A DNA stretch of 5,442 nucleotides from a virus (taxonomy: Duplodnaviria; Heunggongvirae; Uroviricota; Caudoviricetes), in IMG/VR virus record IMGVR_UViG_3300029049_000104, one strand, 5' to 3'. Position 1 is the first letter of the stretch. Every line of letters starts with the position of its first letter. Positions 1 to 4,954 of the stretch are shown here, piece by piece. A program made the translations under genes and the position numbers. The notes under the pieces were generated by a model. That model made no database searches. It saw only the letters and a list, made by a program, of their open reading frames with translations, and was not told where the DNA came from.

Positions 1-1575
1 TGGCATGAGGCGTTACTGATTGCTGTCGGGGAGGTCAATAAAGACCGTTCTCCTTATGCCAGTAAACATGCCATTCGTGATGTGCGTGCACGCCGCCAGG
101 CAAATCTGGAATTTCTTAAATCGTGTGACCTTGAAAATAAGGAAACCGGCGAGCGCATCGACCTTATCAGTAAGGTGATGGGCAGTATTTCTAATCCTGA
201 AATTCGCCGGATGGAGCTGATGAACACCATTGCCGGTATTGAGCGTTACGCCGCTGCAGAGGGTGATGTGGGGATGTTTATCACGCTGACCGCGCCGTCA
301 AAGTATCACCCGACACGTCAGGTCGGAAAAGGCGAAAGTAAAACCGTTCAGCTTAATCACGGCTGGAACGATGAGGCATTTAATCCAAAGGATGCGCAGC
401 GTTATCTCTGCCGTATCTGGAGCCTGATGCGCACGGCATTCAAGGATAATGATTTACAGGTCTACGGTTTGCGTGTCGTCGAGCCACACCACGACGGAAC
501 GCCGCACTGGCATATGATGCTTTTTTGTAATCCACGCCAGCGTAACCAGATTATCGAAATCATGCGTCGCTATGCGCTCAAAGAGGATGGCGACGAAAGA
601 GGAGCCGCGCGAAACCGTTTTCAGGCAAAACACCTTAATCGGGGCGGTGCTGCGGGGTATATCGCGAAATACATCTCAAAAAACATCGACGGCTATGCAC
701 TGGATGGTCAGCTCGATAACGATACCGGCAGACCGCTGAAAGATACTGCCGCGGCTGTTACCGCATGGGCGTCAACGTGGCGCATTCCGCAATTTAAAAC
801 GGTTGGCCTGCCGACAATGGGGGCTTACCGTGAACTACGCAAATTGCCTCGCGGCGTCAGCATTGCTGATGAGTTTGACGAGCGCGTCGAGGCTGCACGC
901 GCCGCCGCAGACAGTGGTGATTTTGCGTTGTATATCAGCGCGCAGGGTGGGGCAAATGTTCCGCGCGATTGTCAGACTGTCAGAGTCGCCCGTAGCCCGT
1001 CGGATGACGTTAACGAGTACGAGGAAGAGGTCGAGAGAGTGGTCGGCATTTACGCGCCGCATCTCGGCGCGCGTCATATTCATATCACCAGAACCACGGA
1101 CTGGCGCATTGTGCCGAAAGTTCCGGTCGTTGAGCCTTTGACTTTAAAAAGCGGCATCGCCGCGCCTCGGAGTCCTGTCAATAACTGTGGAAAGCTTGCC
1201 GACGGTGGCGATCCAGTTATGACACCTACGCCGTCTGAGCATGCCGCAGCGGTGCTAAATCTGGTTGATGGCGGTGTTATCGAATGGAATGACCCGGAGG
1301 TCGTGAGGACGCTCAGGGGCGCATTAAAACACGGGCTGAGAACGCCAAGTCGTCAGCAAAGAAACGGAAGCCCATTAAAACCGCATGAAATAGCGCCATC
1401 GGCCAGACTGACCCGGTCGGAACGAATGCAAATTACCCGTATCCGCGTTGACCTTGCTCAGAACGGTATCAGGCCTCAGCGATGGGAGCTTGAGGCGCTG
1501 GCGCGTGGCGCGACCGTAAATTACGACGGGAAAAAATTTAGGTATTTTATAGTTAATGAGTGGCCTATTTTCTAG
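1..1575 (+). CDS. A: Replication initiation endonuclease gpA (rolling-circle HUH initiator), 5'-truncated by the window edge; stop TAG at 1573..1575
   Basis: The frame of the 82..1575 ORF stays open back to base 1 (WHEALLIAVGEVNKDRSPYASKHAIRDVRA...), so the gene begins upstream of the window. HUH motif PHWHMMLF (HWH at 505..513). Paired catalytic tyrosines GYIAKYISKNIDGY (Tyr codons 658..660 and 670..672), the Y-x3-Y arrangement typical of phiX174/P2 A-type initiators. Confidence 0.9.
   Translation, partial: WHEALLIAVGEVNKDRSPYASKHAIRDVRARRQANLEFLKSCDLENKETGERIDLISKVMGSISNPEIRRMELMNTIAGIERYAAAEGDVGMFITLTAPSKYHPTRQVGKGESKTVQLNHGWNDEAFNPKDAQRYLCRIWSLMRTAFKDNDLQVYGLRVVEPHHDGTPHWHMMLFCNPRQRNQIIEIMRRYALKEDGDERGAARNRFQAKHLNRGGAAGYIAKYISKNIDGYALDGQLDNDTGRPLKDTAAAVTAWASTWRIPQFKTVGLPTMGAYRELRKLPRGVSIADEFDERVEAARAAADSGDFALYISAQGGANVPRDCQTVRVARSPSDDVNEYEEEVERVVGIYAPHLGARHIHITRTTDWRIVPKVPVVEPLTLKSGIAAPRSPVNNCGKLADGGDPVMTPTPSEHAAAVLNLVDGGVIEWNDPEVVRTLRGALKHGLRTPSRQQRNGSPLKPHEIAPSARLTRSERMQITRIRVDLAQNGIRPQRWELEALARGATVNYDGKKFRYFIVNEWPIF
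1162..1181 (+). other. Candidate replication origin / gpA nick region inside the A coding sequence (gcgcctcggagtcctgtcaa)
   Basis: In P2 and 186 the origin lies within the 3' part of gene A. This 20-mer matches what I recall of the conserved P2/186 ori nick region, but that recollection is not verified. Confidence 0.3.
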
Positions 1576-1618
1576 GCTACCATTAATGTCGGGTTTAGAT
1601 AATGCAATAATTTATTGG

Positions 1619-1654
1619 CAAGGTCTTCAGATTTAACTAAAGACCTTGTGTTTT
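1619..1654. terminator. Candidate bidirectional intrinsic terminator between convergent gene A (+) and the cargo gene (-)
   Basis: Perfect 9-bp inverted repeat caaggtctt (1619..1627) / aagaccttg (1640..1648) with a 12-nt loop, followed on + by tgttttaattgttttc. On the - strand the hairpin is followed by A/T-rich sequence. It lies 44 nt past the A stop and about 48 nt past the cargo gene stop (1696). Confidence 0.5.
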
Positions 1655-1695
1655 AATTGTTTTCTAGTCTTTTATATGAGCGTAAGTCTATGGGG

Positions 1696-2289
1696 TTACT
1701 GTGGTGGAGTCCATATTTTTAATGCGATATTTTTATATGTTTCCCCGCGTGCTGTAATAGCATTGGCGTTGAATTCAACATATTCTTCAAGATTGATATC
1801 GTTATTTGCAGATAAGAATCTTACCAGCTCAGGGTTGTTTTGATAAAAGTTTGCGCATAATGTCTGGCAAAGAACGTTTTCACCGCTATATACTGTTTTC
1901 TTTTCTGAGTACAACTTATCATTTAATGATCTGTTTCTTGAACGGGGAAGCAATATCAAACCACCAATCAAGTTTCTCTTCTGCTTGTATTCAGTGTCAG
2001 ATGAAAAACCGAAGGCTGATGAAGGCATGGTTGTATCATCAATTACTTCGCGAAGAACATGTTCTATATCAAAAGTTTTCATACCTTTGTCGCGTTGCAT
2101 ATAAACATCAAACCCTACTTTGTTTGTTAGGTTTATCTCGTTTTCAATGTAAGAGGCGATACGAGCCAGAATATAAAGCATATCTGATCTGGTTTTATTC
2201 TCGTACGCCATTTCTGGTATTCTATTAAGTAATGTATAATGCTTGTCCCATTCGTTTTGGACATAGCTTAACAATGCTGGATAATCTTT
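1696..2289 (-). CDS. C-terminal segment of the GmrSD-like cargo protein: DUF1524 / His-Me-finger (HNH-like) nuclease-type domain; stop TAA at 1696..1698. Probably the same gene as 2304..3628, split by the assembly gap
   Basis: The frame is open from the gap edge (KDYPALLSYVQNEWDK...), with no need for the TTG start the ORF track assigns at 2274. Motif DIEH (2059..2070) followed about 25 aa later by KRNLIGGLILLPRSRNRSLNDKLYSEKK, which fits the DUF1524 pattern EH ... GNLxLL ... N ... N. AT-rich codon usage matches the upstream segment. Confidence 0.75.
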   Translation of the reverse strand, partial: KDYPALLSYVQNEWDKHYTLLNRIPEMAYENKTRSDMLYILARIASYIENEINLTNKVGFDVYMQRDKGMKTFDIEHVLREVIDDTTMPSSAFGFSSDTEYKQKRNLIGGLILLPRSRNRSLNDKLYSEKKTVYSGENVLCQTLCANFYQNNPELVRFLSANNDINLEEYVEFNANAITARGETYKNIALKIWTPPQ

Positions 2290-2303
2290 NNNNNNNNNNN
2301 NNN
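2290..2303. other. Assembly gap or masked bases (14 N) inside the cargo gene
   Basis: A run of n characters is directly visible. Its length is not a multiple of 3, and the true gap length is unknown. Confidence 0.99.
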
Positions 2304-3628
2304 TCTTTAGCTAAGCTGAATGCAATATCTTTTAAATTGTCATAAGTGTTTGCTTTCTTCGATACGATTCGACTGGTGAGAATTAGATCAATATACTTAG
2401 ATATTATTTGGATTTTTTTCTTACGAACATCACGGGTATCTGATAAATCTACAGAAGATAGAATTATCATGGTTTGAAAGTTGAATTTTCTAATTCCATT
2501 ATAGAAAACGTCAGGGTAATCAGTAGTCAGATTTTTCTCAGCATTGGCAATTGTCAAGCATAAATTTGCATACTCGGGTATATCTGTTTTTGCAAAGTTA
2601 TAAAAATCATCGGAAGTAATCAGACCGATATCATGGGTTTTATCTTCAAACCACCGATGATAAGAATCATTGATTTTATCAAAATCACCAGGTGCATCGC
2701 CTTTATTTTTACCTCTAATAGTGTTTGCCCATTTAGCGCGTAATAAATTCCTGATAAATAGAGAATCTCCCTCTGGATCTTTGTCTCTAAGTTTAGACAT
2801 GGTTTTTACCCATACCTGATGGCATTCTTGACTATCTTCGGGGCTAGTGATTTTTGACAGAATAAAACCTTTTAATAGTTCAATTGCACCGAGTCTCAAG
2901 CCACGGTCATTCATTGTGACAAATACTCTATGCGCTTCTGACTCGCTTGAGACGGATATATCTATTAAAAGAACTTTTTCCATTAAATAATCAATAAAGA
3001 AAGAAACTTTTTCTTTTATTGTTGGATCCAAAGCATCCTCAATGGATTTCATTGCCTCAATTATTCTTTTATCGCTATCACTAAGATTAGTAATGCTATC
3101 TACATCATCTAGTGCGTCTGCAAGACATTTTGCGTTGTCAGTATATTTTGTGAATATTTCTTTTCTAACTTCGGAAAATTCAATATTGAAATCGCGTTCC
3201 CCATAAGAAACACTCCCAATAAAATTTTCTAAAGCCAAAGTGTCTGGAATGTGGTTATCCTTGATATATCTTTCAAAAAAAACAAGAAGAATAAATATAG
3301 ACGTGATTCGTTGTTGTCCATCAATCAACGGGCGCTTACCGTTGGTTTCAACCGCCGTAATGATAGAACCAAGAAAGTATGGAGGATAAGATGATACATC
3401 GCGTCTACCATGAGTAGACTCATAACTCAGTAAGAAAGCATTTTGAATGTCATTTAACATTTCAAGAAAATGCCTGCTTTCCCATTTATAATCCCTCTGA
3501 AAATATGGTAGTGAGTACTTGCTTTGAAAGCAGGTTTTTAAACTTAGAGTCGATGGGGTTATATACGCCATTAATACATCCTTTTGTCTGTAAAGAGCTT
3601 CTGTGAGAAGCGCATTATACTGCATCAA
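2304..3628 (-). CDS. N-terminal segment of the GmrSD-like cargo protein: DUF262 (ParB/Srx-like NTPase-type) domain plus a long central region. Start is TTG at 3626..3628 or, more likely, ATG at 3623..3625
   Basis: DUF262 hallmarks: YSLPYFQRDYKWE (QR codons at 3494..3499), PYFLGSIIT, LIDGQQRITS (DGQQR at 3308..3322), and FVTMNDRGLRLGAIELLKG. The frame is open into the gap. The 20 codons the ORF track adds after the gap (to 2225) are in an arbitrary frame and are not trusted. Confidence 0.8.
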
Positions 3629-3731
3629 GCTGCATTAGTTTTCTACATGTTAATTGATGTCTACAAAGTAGATTTGACAAGTTTTTGAGGTGGGCGTGCA
3701 CTTGCATTCAAACCGACCCATGAAGCGGGCG

Positions 3732-3750
3732 GGCGAGGCGGGGAAAGCAC
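3732..3750. other. P2-type cohesive end site (cos), 19-nt ggcgaggcggggaaagcac; the adjacent sequence up to about 3919 resembles the P2 left-end packaging region
   Basis: Exact match to the P2 19-nt cohesive-end sequence as I recall it. The following sequence (ctgcgcgctg.cggtggtgctgatt...tttttcagcgtct.agcgcgtcgtga...) is close to the start of the P2 genome. Its position between the A-side cargo and the end of Q is as expected. Confidence 0.8.
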
Positions 3751-3892
3751 TGCGCGCTGGCGGTGGTGCTGATTTTATTTTTTCAGCGTCTGAGCGCGTC
3801 GTGATGGCGTTTAGATTGTGCGCCGGGGTGTTGGTGTGTCTGCGGGATGTTTTGTGCGGTGGTGAGCGTGTGAGGGCGTGATGACGGGGTGT

Positions 3893-3914
3893 AAAAAAGC
3901 CGCCCGCAGGCGGC
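3893..3914 (-). terminator. Intrinsic terminator immediately downstream of Q on the - strand
   Basis: GC stem gccgcc (3899..3904) / ggcggc (3909..3914) with tetraloop cgca. On the - strand it reads GCCGCCTGCGGGCGGC followed by TTTTTTAC (3898..3891). It begins 5 nt after the Q stop codon. Confidence 0.6.
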
Positions 3915-3919
3915 GATGT

Positions 3920-4954
3920 TCAGCCGTTGTCAGTGTCCAGTGAGTAGTTTTTAAAGCGGATGACCTCCTGACCGAGCCAGCCGTTTATCTCGCGGATCCT
4001 GTCCTGTAACGGGATAAGCTCATTGCGGACAAAGACCTTTGCCACTTTCTCAATATCACCCAGCGACCCGACGTTCTCCGGCTTGCCGCCCATCAACTGA
4101 AAAGGGATGCGGTGCGCGTCCAGCAGGTCTGCGGCGCTGGCTTTTTTGATATTAAAAAAATCGTCCTTCGTTGCCACTTCACTGAGCGGGATAATTTTAA
4201 TGCCGTCGGCTTTTCCCTGTGGGGCGTAAAGAAACAGGTTTTTAAAGTTGTTGCGGCCTTTCGACTTAACCATGTTTTCGCGAAGCATTTCGATATCGTT
4301 GCGATCCTGCACGGCATCGGTGACGTACATGATATATCCGGCATGAGCGCCGTTTTCGTAATACTTGCGGCGGAACAGCGTGGCCGACTCATTCAGCCAG
4401 GCAGAGTTAAGGGCGCTGAGATATTCCGGCAGGCCGTACAGCTCCTGATTGATATCCGGCTCCAGCAGGTGAAACACGGAGCCGGGCGTGAAGGCTGTCG
4501 GCTCGTTGAAGGACGGCACCCACCAGTAAACATCCTCTTCCACACCACGGCGGGTATATTTTGCCGGTGAGGTTTCCAGTCTGATGACTTTACCGGTGGT
4601 GCTGTATCGCTTTTCCAGAAACGCATTACCGAACACCAGAAAATCCAGCACAAAGCGGCTGAAATCCTGCTGGGAAAGCCACGGATGCGGGATAAATGTC
4701 GAGGCCAGAATATTACGTTTGACGTAAATCGGTGAGCTGTGATGTACGGCAGCACGCAGGCTTTTTGCCAGACCGGTAAAGCTGACCGGTGGCTCATACC
4801 ATCTGCCGTTACTGATGCACTCGACGTAATCCAGAATGTCACGGCGGTCGAGTACCGGCACCGGCTCACCAAAGGTGAATGCCTCCATTTTCGGGGCGCT
4901 GGCGGTCATTTTTTTTGCCGCAGGTTGCGGTGTTTTCCCTTTTTTCTTGCTCAT
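3920..4954 (-). CDS. Q: Portal (capsid portal vertex) protein gpQ, complete, 344 aa
   Basis: A 344-aa ORF with lysine-rich N-terminus MSKKKGKTPQPAAKK... matching the size and sequence I recall for P2 gpQ. It lies immediately cos-proximal and downstream of P, as in P2. Confidence 0.93.
   Translation of the reverse strand: MSKKKGKTPQPAAKKMTASAPKMEAFTFGEPVPVLDRRDILDYVECISNGRWYEPPVSFTGLAKSLRAAVHHSSPIYVKRNILASTFIPHPWLSQQDFSRFVLDFLVFGNAFLEKRYSTTGKVIRLETSPAKYTRRGVEEDVYWWVPSFNEPTAFTPGSVFHLLEPDINQELYGLPEYLSALNSAWLNESATLFRRKYYENGAHAGYIMYVTDAVQDRNDIEMLRENMVKSKGRNNFKNLFLYAPQGKADGIKIIPLSEVATKDDFFNIKKASAADLLDAHRIPFQLMGGKPENVGSLGDIEKVAKVFVRNELIPLQDRIREINGWLGQEVIRFKNYSLDTDNG

What the first reader, a model, noticed from the sequence alone, without database searches (positions are those of the whole stretch)
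1696..3628. GmrSD/BrxU-like (DUF262 + DUF1524) candidate type IV restriction protein occupies the P2 tin/old cargo locus
In P2 the interval between gene A and cos carries tin and old, and in P2-like prophages this interval is a known variable hotspot for anti-phage systems. Here it holds a single large minus-strand gene. Its N-terminus has DUF262 hallmarks (PYFQRDYKWE, LIDGQQRITS, FVTMNDRGLRL) and its C-terminus has a DUF1524/His-Me-finger-like signature (DIEH ... NLIGGLILLPRSRNRSLND). This two-domain architecture is that of GmrSD, BrxU and SspE-type enzymes, which cleave modified DNA such as glucosyl-hmC or hmC. No methyltransferase is adjacent, which fits a modification-dependent rather than type I-III system. 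A prophage-borne enzyme of this kind would plausibly exclude superinfecting phages with hypermodified DNA, much as tin does for T-even phages. Whether this particular protein is already described cannot be judged without a database search.
Basis: partly seen in the sequence, partly recalled or inferred. Interest (0 to 1): 0.8.

Follow-up and report, generated by a model that had tools for sequence, protein, structure and literature searches.

The report
GmrSD-like defence nuclease in P2 prophage
A P2-like prophage carries, in its known anti-phage cargo slot, one gene for a two-domain NTPase-nuclease of the GmrSD superfamily; this is an untested but fairly ordinary new member of a known class of phage-defence enzymes.

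Summary
Between the P2 replication gene A (ends 1575) and cos (3732-3750) lies one minus-strand gene, 1696-3571. A run of 14 N (2290-2303) interrupts it and puts the two halves out of frame. Seven near-identical relatives have 10 bases there and an intact 623-aa protein (RefSeq WP_001695619.1, 'DUF262 domain-containing protein'). Outside the gap the window protein is identical to it.

Pfam assigns GmrSD_N/DUF262 (E 5e-31) and GmrSD_C/DUF1524 (E 1.5e-7), both above the curated cut-offs. The catalytic motifs (FQR, DGQQR, EH, N545) are invariant across a family of ~620-aa proteins.

The predicted fold matches only DndI, SspE and BrxU. By sequence the protein is far from all tested enzymes: 20% identity to HEC-06, and BrxU is barely detectable.

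There is no conserved partner gene. Close homologues sit in the same P2 slot in Klebsiella. Distant homologues are nested in type I R-M and Hachiman loci.

My reading is a stand-alone, NTP-regulated His-Me-finger nuclease used for prophage-encoded phage exclusion, probably dependent on DNA modification (type IV-like). The substrate is unknown and untested. The P2 gpA-gpQ hotspot and DUF262/DUF1524 cargo in it are already catalogued (Rousset 2022). Verdict: new member of a known kind, of modest interest.

The parts
1696..3571 (-). Coding sequence of the cargo gene. It encodes 623 aa once the N-run is replaced by the 10 nt found in relatives. Stop codon at 1696-1698, start ATG at 3569-3571.
   Evidence: Identical to WP_001695619.1 outside the gap. 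The start is supported by 25 homologues.
2290..2303 (.). Run of 14 N inside the gene (codons ~423-427). Relatives have 10 nt here (TGTTAGAGGG on the coding strand).
2861..3523 (-). N-terminal DUF262 / GmrSD_N domain (ParB/Srx-like NTPase), aa 17-237.
3479..3508 (-). PYFQRDYKWE motif (aa 22-31). F24 occupies the position of the phosphorothioate-sensing Tyr of DndI (Y25) and SspE (Y30).
3308..3322 (-). DGQQR motif (aa 84-88), the NTP-hydrolysis motif of the superfamily. Invariant in 25 of 25 homologues.
   Evidence: Its role is shown in DndI (R87A), HEC-06 (Q79A, R80A) and BrxU.
2891..2923 (-). FVTMNDRGLRL motif (aa 217-227), the third conserved block of DUF262. Invariant in the family.
2224..2860 (-). 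All-helical middle (linker) domain, aa 238-448. It contains the N-run.
   Evidence: AlphaFold2 model: helices from 244 to 452, pLDDT mostly above 85.
1741..2223 (-). C-terminal DUF1524 / GmrSD_C His-Me-finger nuclease domain, aa 449-609.
2059..2070 (-). DIEH (aa 500-503). E502-H503 corresponds to the catalytic EH of HEC-06 and DH of BrxU.
1918..1974 (-). NLIGGLILLPRSRNRSLND (aa 532-550). N545 (1933-1935) aligns with the catalytic N541 of DndI. The canonical 'GN' is G-G/A in this family.
3579..3583 (-). AAGGA ribosome-binding site, 7 nt upstream of ATG 3571.
   Evidence: read from the sequence
3614..3619 (-). Perfect TATAAT hexamer, a candidate -10 element for the cargo gene. It has no good -35 partner, and the consensus scan did not call a promoter here.
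   Evidence: candidate only
1618..1649 (.). Hairpin with a 10-bp stem between the convergent gpA and cargo genes, T-rich on the + strand side. Likely terminator.
   Evidence: z-score only -1.5; structure read from the sequence
1576..3673 (.). Low-GC cargo segment (30-38% GC against 51-59% in the backbone). It has no DNA match in other P2-like phages; homology to P2 resumes at about 3674-3700.
3732..3750 (+). P2 cos cohesive-end 19-mer, GGCGAGGCGGGGAAAGCAC.
   Evidence: Exact match; 0 expected by chance. The identity of the 19-mer comes from my own knowledge of P2.
1..1575 (+). 3' part of the P2 replication gene A (left flank of the hotspot).
   Evidence: PF05840, E 2.6e-85. Annotated 'replication endonuclease' in relatives.
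3920..4954 (-). Portal gene Q (right flank of the hotspot).
   Evidence: PF04860

Best explanation
The gene encodes a stand-alone, single-chain member of the GmrSD superfamily. A P2-like prophage carries it as cargo in its gpA-cos-gpQ defence hotspot, and it is presumably expressed in the lysogen to exclude other phages.

Proposed mechanism, inferred from characterised relatives:
- The N-terminal ParB/Srx-like DUF262 domain (FQR, DGQQR, FVTMNDRG) binds and hydrolyses NTP and acts as a switch.
- A helical middle domain mediates dimerisation and/or DNA contact.
- The C-terminal His-Me-finger domain nicks or cuts DNA, with E502-H503 as general base and N545 as metal ligand.

The gene travels alone on a prophage through E. 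coli, Salmonella, Klebsiella and Enterobacter. It has no methylase, phosphorothioation genes or any other conserved partner. Self/non-self discrimination is therefore most likely by a feature present only on invader DNA, that is, modification-dependent (type IV-like) restriction of phages with modified bases. Which modification is unknown.

Shown here: domain identity, motif conservation, fold, genomic position, absence of a partner, defence-island association. Inferred: enzymatic activities, modification dependence, target phages.
For: - Pfam assigns GmrSD_N (E 5.4e-31) and GmrSD_C (E 1.5e-7), both above the curated cut-offs.
- The best PADLOC matches are HEC-06 (9.5e-38) and Orf5 (= DndI) (3.3e-32). 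One Orf5 model covers residues 18-619. Orf5 is DndI according to PMC4198939.
- In the 25 aligned homologues (51-85% identity to the window protein) the catalytic motifs are invariant. dN is 0.098 with saturated dS against the 85%-identical Klebsiella homologue, which indicates purifying selection.
- The slot is the known P2 defence hotspot (PMC9122126). The Klebsiella homologue (85%) and four of the five IMG/VR homologues at 73-100% (L009-L012, L014) lie directly between portal and gpA; in L014 small extra ORFs flank the gene.
- Among 97 loci the proteobacterial ones share no recurrent neighbour. 38 of 97, all from the 30-34%-identity group, are nested on the same strand in type I R-M (30), next to HamA/HamB-like genes (16) or next to Mrr-type nucleases (8). 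Other neighbours are HEC-04-like, PDC-S05 and RT proteins.
- The tested relative HEC-06 loses defence when its QR and EH motifs are mutated. HEC-06 blocks T4, and a HEC-06 homologue defends against T-even phages but not T4-GT7.
- F24 replaces the phosphorothioate-sensing Tyr of DndI and SspE.
Against: - No experiment exists for this protein or its ~620-aa subfamily.
- It is only 20% identical to HEC-06 over 261 aa, and the PADLOC HEC-06 models cover only the N-terminal ~45% of the protein.
- The closest solved folds, DndI and SspE, are not modification-dependent cutters. They are phosphorothioate-sensing effectors that attack unmarked DNA.
- The GmrSD_C score is modest, and the canonical 'GN' asparagine of the nuclease motif is Gly or Ala in this family.
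- The nucleotide-site segments of the model (residues 1-28 and 212-227) have low confidence.
- No clear sigma-70 promoter was found.
- In the window itself the ORF is interrupted by a run of N of the wrong length.
- Of the 50,697 GenBank phage records searched, none shares the cargo gene's DNA and only one, an uncultured faecal-metagenome phage, encodes even a distant homologue (23% identity).
Confidence: 0.6

Rival explanations
1. A defence nuclease of the same fold that does not read DNA modification. Some other infection cue would release it, such as a phage protein, a change in the nucleotide pool sensed by the NTPase domain, or DNA ends or replication intermediates. It could act as an abortive-infection toxin.
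For: - The architecture alone does not specify the trigger.
- DndI and SspE show that the DUF262 switch can sense something other than base modification.
- Some GmrSD enzymes are reported as extremely toxic (PMC12373910).
- The family is unusually well conserved, about 50-55% identity from Enterobacteria to Pseudomonas, Burkholderia and Myxococcus over the full length. That is more than expected for enzymes chasing diverse phage modifications.
Against: - Every stand-alone DUF262+DUF1524 enzyme named in the papers read here whose discrimination rule is reported (GmrSD, BrxU, a HEC-06 homologue) is modification-dependent.
- The gene is stably carried intact in many genomes without an antitoxin-like neighbour.
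Confidence: 0.2
2. A DndI/SspE-type effector that relies on phosphorothioate marks in host DNA for self-protection and attacks unmarked phage DNA.
For: - PADLOC Orf5/DndI models match strongly.
- The nuclease motif aligns with DndI, N541 to N545.
Against: - No dnd or ssp gene is in the window.
- None of the annotated neighbour clusters among the 97 homologous loci is Dnd/Ssp-like; several smaller clusters were not annotated.
- The gene rides on a prophage that moves between hosts. DndI is toxic in cells without phosphorothioation, so such a cargo would kill most new lysogens (inference).
- The phosphorothioate-sensing Tyr (DndI Y25, SspE Y30) is an invariant Phe here, as in HEC-06.
- Only three families of this superfamily have solved structures, so 'closest solved' is a weak criterion.
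Confidence: 0.07
3. In this particular genome the gene is a pseudogene: the 14-position gap reflects a real +4 insertion or frameshift. The cargo would then be decaying.
For: - The two halves are out of frame in the window as given.
- Relatives show decay around the gene: IS903B removes the N-terminal half in strain PK13, and IS5 sits between the gene start and cos in PEC41.
Against: - Runs of N normally mark unresolved or masked sequence, not real bases.
- The flanks are identical to relatives that all have 10 nt there.
- The rest of the ORF has no stop or amino-acid change relative to WP_001695619.1.
Confidence: 0.1
4. A non-defence function, for example a ParB-like partition or DNA-processing protein used by the prophage itself.
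For: - About a quarter of P2-like phages carry a putative partition system in this same hotspot.
Against: - There is no ParA partner.
- A conserved His-Me nuclease domain is fused to it.
- Homologues are embedded in R-M and Hachiman loci in unrelated chromosomes, not tied to replicons.
- The gene is absent from most P2-like phages, being present in 8 of 5426 complete E. coli genomes.
Confidence: 0.03

Closest known systems
HEC-06 (GmrSD-like single-gene defence; Payne et al. 2024 bioRxiv 10.1101/2024.01.29.577857)
   Same: - Best PADLOC match (E 9.5e-38).
- Single-chain DUF262 + helical linker + DUF1524.
- Has the F-Q-R and DGQQR motifs and an 'EH' nuclease motif.
- Functions alone.
- Relatives are embedded in larger defence loci.
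- HEC-06 is reported to block T4, and a homologue is modification-dependent.
   Different: - Only 20% identity over 261 N-terminal residues to the tested protein.
- The PADLOC best-stretch match covers only the N-terminal ~45% of the profile.
- 623 aa against ~560 aa.
- This one is P2-prophage cargo rather than embedded in an Hma locus.
DndI (Orf5) of Salmonella Cerro 87, PDB 9JFL (PMC11662687)
   Same: - Same three-part architecture.
- DGQQR motif.
- Nuclease motif NxIG-x-LLxxxxN, with N541 aligned to N545.
   Different: - 13-15% identity.
- DndI works with IscS-DndBCDE phosphorothioation and senses it through Y25. Here there are no dnd genes, and Phe occupies that position.
- DndI is toxic without phosphorothioation, whereas this gene travels alone on a prophage.
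SspE (PDB 6JIV, 7DRS, 7DRI)
   Same: - DUF262 NTPase plus DUF1524 nicking nuclease.
   Different: - Sequence similarity is marginal (E 0.02-0.37).
- SspE is ~770 aa and depends on SspABCD phosphorothioation.
- None of the neighbour clusters annotated here is Ssp-like.
BrxU / HEC-05 (PDB 7P9K) and classical GmrSD (Eco94GmrSD, EcoCT GmrSD)
   Same: - Single polypeptide and no methylase.
- These are the enzymes for which cleavage of hmC or glc-hmC DNA is established.
   Different: - Sequence relation is barely detectable (BLASTP E 0.004 to HEC-05; PADLOC HEC-05 7e-4 and mREase_IV 3e-6).
- BrxU has a canonical beta-beta-alpha HNH with DHIYP. Here the motif is of the DndI/SspE type.
- This gene is not embedded in BREX.
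P2 tin and old (the cargo of the same slot in phage P2)
   Same: - Same genomic position between gene A and cos/Q.
- Same presumed biological role: a prophage-encoded gene that excludes other phages.
   Different: - Unrelated proteins. No DNA similarity to P2 in the cargo segment.
- Old is an ATPase-TOPRIM nuclease.
- Tin acts on T-even replication (my own knowledge), not as a DNA-modification reader.

Membership tests
GmrSD superfamily (DUF262 + DUF1524 single-chain enzymes) | N-terminal DUF262/GmrSD_N (ParB/Srx-like) domain scoring above the Pfam threshold | tested here: met
   PF03235: 108.7 bits against a cut-off of 33.2, E 5.4e-31, residues 17-237
GmrSD superfamily (DUF262 + DUF1524 single-chain enzymes) | DGQQR NTP-hydrolysis motif | tested here: met
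   D84-G-Q-Q-R88, invariant in 25 of 25 homologues
GmrSD superfamily (DUF262 + DUF1524 single-chain enzymes) | C-terminal DUF1524/GmrSD_C His-Me-finger domain with a (D/E)H ... N catalytic motif | tested here: met
   PF07510: 31.8 bits against a cut-off of 23. E502-H503 and N545 are invariant. N545 aligns to the catalytic N541 of DndI. Deviation: the 'GN' Asn is Gly or Ala.
GmrSD superfamily (DUF262 + DUF1524 single-chain enzymes) | Overall fold: NTPase domain, helical linker, nuclease domain | tested here: met
   [not shown]
Type IV (modification-dependent) restriction enzyme | Cleaves modified but not unmodified DNA; restricts modified phage only | not testable with these tools
   Needs plaque assays (T4 versus T4-GT7 and others) and in-vitro cleavage.
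Type IV (modification-dependent) restriction enzyme | No cognate methyltransferase or other self-protecting partner | tested here: met
   None in the window. No recurrent neighbour in proteobacterial loci. In the P2 slot it lies directly between portal and gpA in L009-L012 and the Klebsiella loci.
HEC-06 (PADLOC family) | Near full-length match to the HEC-06 profiles | tested here: not met
   E 9.5e-38, but the best stretch covers profile positions 14-275 of 558 only.
BrxU (HEC-05) | Sequence membership and embedding in a BREX locus | tested here: not met
   PADLOC HEC-05 E 7e-4 with no significant stretch. BLASTP E 0.004. The context is a P2 prophage.
DndI / SspE phosphorothioate-sensing effectors | Genetic linkage to dndBCDE or sspABCD modification genes | tested here: not met
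   Absent from the window. None of the recurrent neighbour clusters that were annotated in the 97 loci is Dnd/Ssp-like.
DndI / SspE phosphorothioate-sensing effectors | Conserved Tyr of the phosphorothioate-sensing hydrophobic patch (DndI Y25, SspE Y30) | tested here: not met
   The aligned residue is F24, invariant in the family.
P2 gpA-gpQ defence hotspot cargo (Rousset et al. 2022) | Located between replication gene A and cos/portal gene Q of a P2-like prophage, variable between otherwise similar phages | tested here: met
   Flanks identified and cos found at 3732-3750. 2154 of 5426 E. coli genomes match the flanks but only 8 carry the cargo. The hotspot definition is in PMC9122126.

The most novel reading that the evidence does not exclude
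The ~620-aa subfamily is strikingly conserved. Identity is 50-55% across Proteobacteria, and 30-34% over the full length into Firmicutes, Bacteroidota, Actinobacteria and archaea (299 clusters at E of 1e-30 or better). It may therefore have a discrimination rule unlike any characterised GmrSD-like enzyme. That rule would be neither hmC or glc-hmC reading (GmrSD, BrxU) nor phosphorothioate sensing (DndI, SspE). It could be recognition of another widespread phage DNA feature (7-deazaguanines, modified thymidines, or a structural or replicative intermediate), or a nucleotide-gated abortive response.
Probability: 0.25. Interest if true: 0.55.

Novelty: new member of a known kind. Interest (0 to 1): 0.3.

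Why it matters
The find adds a concrete, easily cloned candidate of 1.9 kb to the list of defence genes that P2-like prophages swap at their cos-proximal hotspot. It is a single gene with a native upstream region of about 160 bp.

It also points to a large, well-conserved and so far untested branch of the GmrSD superfamily. That branch sits closer in sequence and fold to HEC-06, DndI and SspE than to the classical GmrSD and BrxU enzymes. Determining its substrate would show how far 'DUF262+DUF1524' can be read as 'type IV restriction' in automated defence annotation. It would also show which phages a P2 lysogen of this type excludes.

It does not open a new category. The hotspot, the domain pair and the defence role of relatives are all published.

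Tried and rejected
- NCBIfam gave no hit, and PHROGs gave only an unknown-function family.
- I looked for this protein in published test sets. It is not mentioned in the text of Rousset 2022, and its accession is not in the stored (truncated) parts of Tables S1 and S5, although 'DUF262/DUF1524' cargo is listed there. It is also not among the GmrSD clusters CLS_001-020 of PMC12373910 as far as the stored list goes, using seven accessions. Because those files are cut, its absence from them is not proof that it was left untested.
- I searched for a conserved partner gene by all-against-all clustering of the ORFs within 6 kb of the match in 97 loci (loci hold up to 8-10 kb per side). None was found in Proteobacteria; recurrent neighbours appear only in distant homologues and are defence genes.
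- The gene-calling there was a crude longest-ORF heuristic. Single-linkage clustering lumped ~450-aa ORFs, likely HsdS, with HsdR.
- The promoter scan found nothing convincing upstream of the gene. The TATAAT at 3614-3619 is only a candidate.
- The intergenic hairpin is not significantly more stable than shuffled sequence (z -1.5).
- dN/dS could not be computed because dS is saturated.
- I did not obtain full-length reference sequences of HEC-06, BrxU or GmrSD. The supplement truncates them at ~400 aa, so the C-terminal comparison rests on profiles and structures only.
- I could not check whether the E. coli hosts that carry the prophage also carry dnd or ssp genes.
Full report
**What is in the window.** The 5442-bp window is a piece of a P2-like prophage. 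It holds the 3' part of replication gene A (to 1575, + strand; PF05840, E 2.6e-85). It also holds portal gene Q (3920-4954, -) and the C-terminal part of terminase P (from 4954, -). The exact P2 cohesive-end 19-mer GGCGAGGCGGGGAAAGCAC lies at 3732-3750 (its identity is from my own knowledge of P2). Between A and cos is a segment of 30-38% GC, against 51-59% in the flanks. This segment has no DNA match in any deposited P2-like phage; homology resumes at about 3674-3700. It is the tin/old position, described by Rousset et al. 2022 (PMC9122126) as the gpA-gpQ hotspot, with 1,650 gene arrangements in E. coli.

**Checking the observation.** The segment holds one long minus-strand gene. As given, the window splits it into two ORFs in different frames (2225-3628 and 1696-2274), because a run of 14 N sits at 2290-2303. 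A megablast against 5,426 complete E. coli genomes found 8 with the whole segment at 98.5-99.3% identity. In strain SW071614 the gene is annotated as a 623-aa 'DUF262 domain-containing protein', WP_001695619.1. In seven close relatives the gap is 10 nt, TGTTAGAGGG. Filling the window with those 10 nt gives a continuous ORF whose product is identical to WP_001695619.1 at every position outside the gap. So the N-run does not keep the real length, and intactness in this genome is likely but unproven.

All 25 aligned homologues start M/L-A/T-Y ('MAY' in 22), which places the start at ATG 3571, with AAGGA 7 nt upstream. One RefSeq record annotates a 641-aa form whose length places its start at ATG 3625.

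**What the protein is.**
- Pfam assigns GmrSD_N/DUF262 (residues 17-237, 108.7 bits, cut-off 33.2) and GmrSD_C/DUF1524 (residues 449-609, 31.8 bits, cut-off 23).
- PADLOC's best models are HEC-06 (E 9.5e-38, N-terminal ~270 residues) and 'Orf5' (E 3.3e-32; one model spans 18-619). SspE, mREase_IV and HEC-05/BrxU score much more weakly.
- Orf5 is the old name of DndI (PMC4198939).
- NCBIfam has nothing, and PHROGs has only an unknown-function family.
- Against PDB sequences only DndI (9JFL; E 2.4e-10, or 2.4e-14 with the family profile) and, marginally, SspE are found.
- An AlphaFold2 model built on 25 homologues has mean pLDDT 82.9. It shows an alpha/beta N-domain, a long all-helical middle domain and a C-terminal domain with the two strands that carry DIEH and LILLP.
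- Foldseek finds DndI (1.2e-11) and BrxU (5.7e-6) and nothing else significant.
- Direct BLASTP gives 20% identity over 261 residues (E 5e-12) to the first 399 residues of the experimentally tested HEC-06, and E 0.004 to HEC-05/BrxU.

The protein is therefore a clear member of the GmrSD superfamily, but of none of its characterised families.

**Conservation.** The homologue search returned 2,472 proteins. The best 120 are almost all 619-661 aa (three shorter or partial entries) and cover 82-100% of the query: 85% identity in Klebsiella, 73-78% in Dickeya, Cronobacter, Morganella and Serratia, and about 51-56% in Pseudomonas, Burkholderia, Lysobacter, Acidocella and others. A word-free scan of 1.84 billion cluster representatives found 299 clusters at E of 1e-30 or better and 6,725 at E of 1e-3 or better. 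In GTDB genomes full-length relatives at 30-34% identity occur in Firmicutes, Bacteroidales, Spirochaetes, Actinobacteria, Akkermansia and two archaea.

In the 25-sequence alignment (51-85% identity to the first sequence) the following are invariant:
- P22-Y-F-Q-R26, Y28-K-W30
- D84-G-Q-Q-R88
- V216 to G228 (VFVTMNDRGLRLG)
- D500-I-E-H503
- L539-L540, R542-S543, N545-R-S-L548 and K556

Against the Klebsiella homologue dN is 0.098 while dS is saturated (76% nucleotide identity, 85% protein identity). The gene is thus under purifying selection.

One deviation from the canonical DUF1524 motif: the Asn of '...IGN-L-x-LL...', present in DndI and SspE, is Gly or Ala in this family. The downstream Asn (N545) aligns with DndI N541, whose mutation abolishes nicking and defence.

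**Genomic context of relatives.**
- The 85%-identical Klebsiella gene lies in the same slot, portal - X - gpA, of a P2-like prophage. IMG/VR loci L009-L012 (84-100%) show the same arrangement; L014 (73%) does too, with small extra ORFs flanking the gene, while L013 (76%) is not in a recognisable P2 context.
- A 55%-identical Pseudomonas gene sits between a reverse-transcriptase gene, an HTH gene and an AbiTii gene.
- I clustered all ORFs within 6 kb of the gene in 97 loci. The proteobacterial loci share no recurrent neighbour.
- 38 of 97 loci, all from the 30-34%-identity group, have the gene on the same strand inside other defence systems. The arrangements are hsdM-(hsdS)-X-hsdR or hsdR-hamA-helicase-X-(Mrr nuclease or SEC-C protein). 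Counts: type I R-M in 30 loci, HamA/HamB-like genes in 16, Mrr in 8.
- Other recurrent neighbours match HEC-04, PDC-S05, a type II methylase (three loci), mad3/8 and RT-protease models. None of the clusters annotated matched Dnd or Ssp models.
- This is the 'embedded defence gene' pattern described for GmrSD-like genes by Payne et al. 2024.
- E. coli plasmids carry a 39.5%-identical paralogue. No phage record shares the gene at DNA level, and by protein search only one uncultured metagenomic phage shows a distant (23%) match.

**Mechanism.** What follows is inference from relatives. In HEC-06, mutating the DGQQR residues (Q79A, R80A) or the EH pair (E471A, H472A) abolishes defence, and the corresponding mutations do the same in BrxU. 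In DndI, R87A abolishes ATPase-dependent discrimination and N541A abolishes nicking. All these residues are conserved here (Q87/R88, E502/H503, N545). I therefore propose an NTP-gated His-Me-finger nuclease, probably dimeric.

How it spares the host cannot be read from the sequence. Three arguments favour modification-dependent (type IV-like) action:
- It has no partner gene and moves on a prophage between genera.
- The stand-alone relatives with known rules (GmrSD, BrxU, a HEC-06 homologue) cut modified phage DNA. HEC-06 is reported to block T4, and the homologue protects against T-even phages but not T4-GT7.
- Nesting in type I R-M loci fits complementary targeting of modified DNA, as proposed for BrxU within BREX.

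Because its hosts are Dam+ Dcm+ enterobacteria, the target cannot be GATC-m6A or CCWGG-m5C (inference).

**The main caution.** The nearest solved structures and one of the two nearest profile families are the phosphorothioate-sensing DndI and SspE, which attack unmarked DNA. I rate that rival low, for three reasons. No dnd or ssp genes were found among the neighbours annotated here. DndI is toxic without phosphorothioation, which is incompatible with a roaming prophage cargo. And the phosphorothioate-sensing Tyr (DndI Y25, SspE Y30) is an invariant Phe, as in HEC-06. A modification-independent trigger remains a real possibility at about 0.2.

**Comparison with what is known, and novelty.** The hotspot is published, and DUF262/DUF1524 cargo in it is catalogued in Table S5 of Rousset 2022. 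The text names none of the tested systems as DUF262/DUF1524. The superfamily and its defence role are established. The exact protein is in RefSeq under a generic name, with about 169 near-identical entries in E. coli and Salmonella and 40 in the Klebsiella/Enterobacter cluster. I found no experimental test of this subfamily. Its accessions are absent from the stored part of the cluster list of the 15 GmrSD groups tested in PMC12373910, but that file is truncated. The finding is thus a correctly recognised new member of a known kind. It is a reasonable cloning target but not surprising. Interest 0.3.

**Uncertainties.**
- Whether the gene is intact in this genome (the N-run).
- The promoter. 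The only candidate is a TATAAT at 3614-3619 without a good -35 element, and the scan called nothing there.
- The substrate.
- Low model confidence at the nucleotide-binding segments (residues 1-28 and 212-227).
- The crude gene-calling used in the neighbourhood analysis.

Noticed in passing
window 2290-2303: The N-run is 14 positions long, but all seven close relatives have 10 nt (TGTTAGAGGG on the coding strand). The gap therefore does not preserve length and makes the gene look frameshifted.
   Followed up: yes
window 3732-3750: An exact copy of the P2 19-nt cohesive-end sequence GGCGAGGCGGGGAAAGCAC. The cargo gene's start lies only 160 bp from cos.
   Followed up: partly
window 3690-3881 (+): A 63-aa GTG-start ORF spans the cos site. 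Its counterpart is annotated as a 'hypothetical protein' (WP_153071063.1) in E. coli 23CRST007. It is probably a spurious call.
   Followed up: partly
L107 (E. coli PEC41) 2522-3502; L008 (E. coli PK13) 2386-4475: Insertion sequences hit this cargo in relatives. In PEC41, IS5 sits between the gene start and cos/portal. In PK13, IS903B replaces the N-terminal half, leaving a 366-aa remnant annotated 'HNH endonuclease family protein'. This could mean decay or counter-selection of the gene.
   Followed up: partly
L106 (E. coli 23CRST007) 437-2362: RefSeq records disagree on the start codon: 641 aa (length implies the upstream ATG, window 3625) against 623 aa (ATG 3571). Homologue N-termini support the shorter form.
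   Followed up: yes
L045, L047, L048, L052, L054 (hsdM-hsdS-X-hsdR); L019, L020, L022, L077, L082, L096 (hsdR-hamA-helicase-X-Mrr or SEC-C): Distant homologues (30-34% identity) are nested on the same strand inside type I R-M operons, sometimes together with a Hachiman-like HamA/helicase pair and an Mrr-type nuclease. These are multi-layer 'embedded' defence loci.
   Followed up: partly
L045 2746-4476 and eight other loci: A recurrent ~576-aa ORF lies immediately upstream of hsdM in the same nested loci. It has no Pfam or PADLOC match and may be a further uncharacterised embedded defence gene.
   Followed up: partly
L015 (IMGVR_UViG_2874396476_000002) 8001-9851: A 38%-identical homologue occurs on another contig that has P2-type capsid-scaffold and terminase genes, but not directly next to the portal/gpA pair. 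It may mark a second insertion site or a different phage layout.
   Followed up: no
one search hits, e.g. P0176, P0180, P0271, P0290, P0302: Some family members are 720-905 aa long. They match the query over their first ~600 residues, so they carry 100-280-aa C-terminal extensions of unknown nature.
   Followed up: no
plasmid hits H37-H45 (e.g. NZ_CP025918.1 3405-5252): E. coli plasmids, and one 5.8-kb Klebsiella plasmid, carry a 39-40%-identical full-length paralogue annotated 'DUF262 domain-containing protein'.
   Followed up: no
window 1618-1649: A 10-bp-stem hairpin lies between the convergent gpA and cargo genes and is followed by a T-rich run on the + strand. It is a likely terminator for gene A and possibly bidirectional. 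It is not significantly more stable than shuffled sequence.
   Followed up: partly
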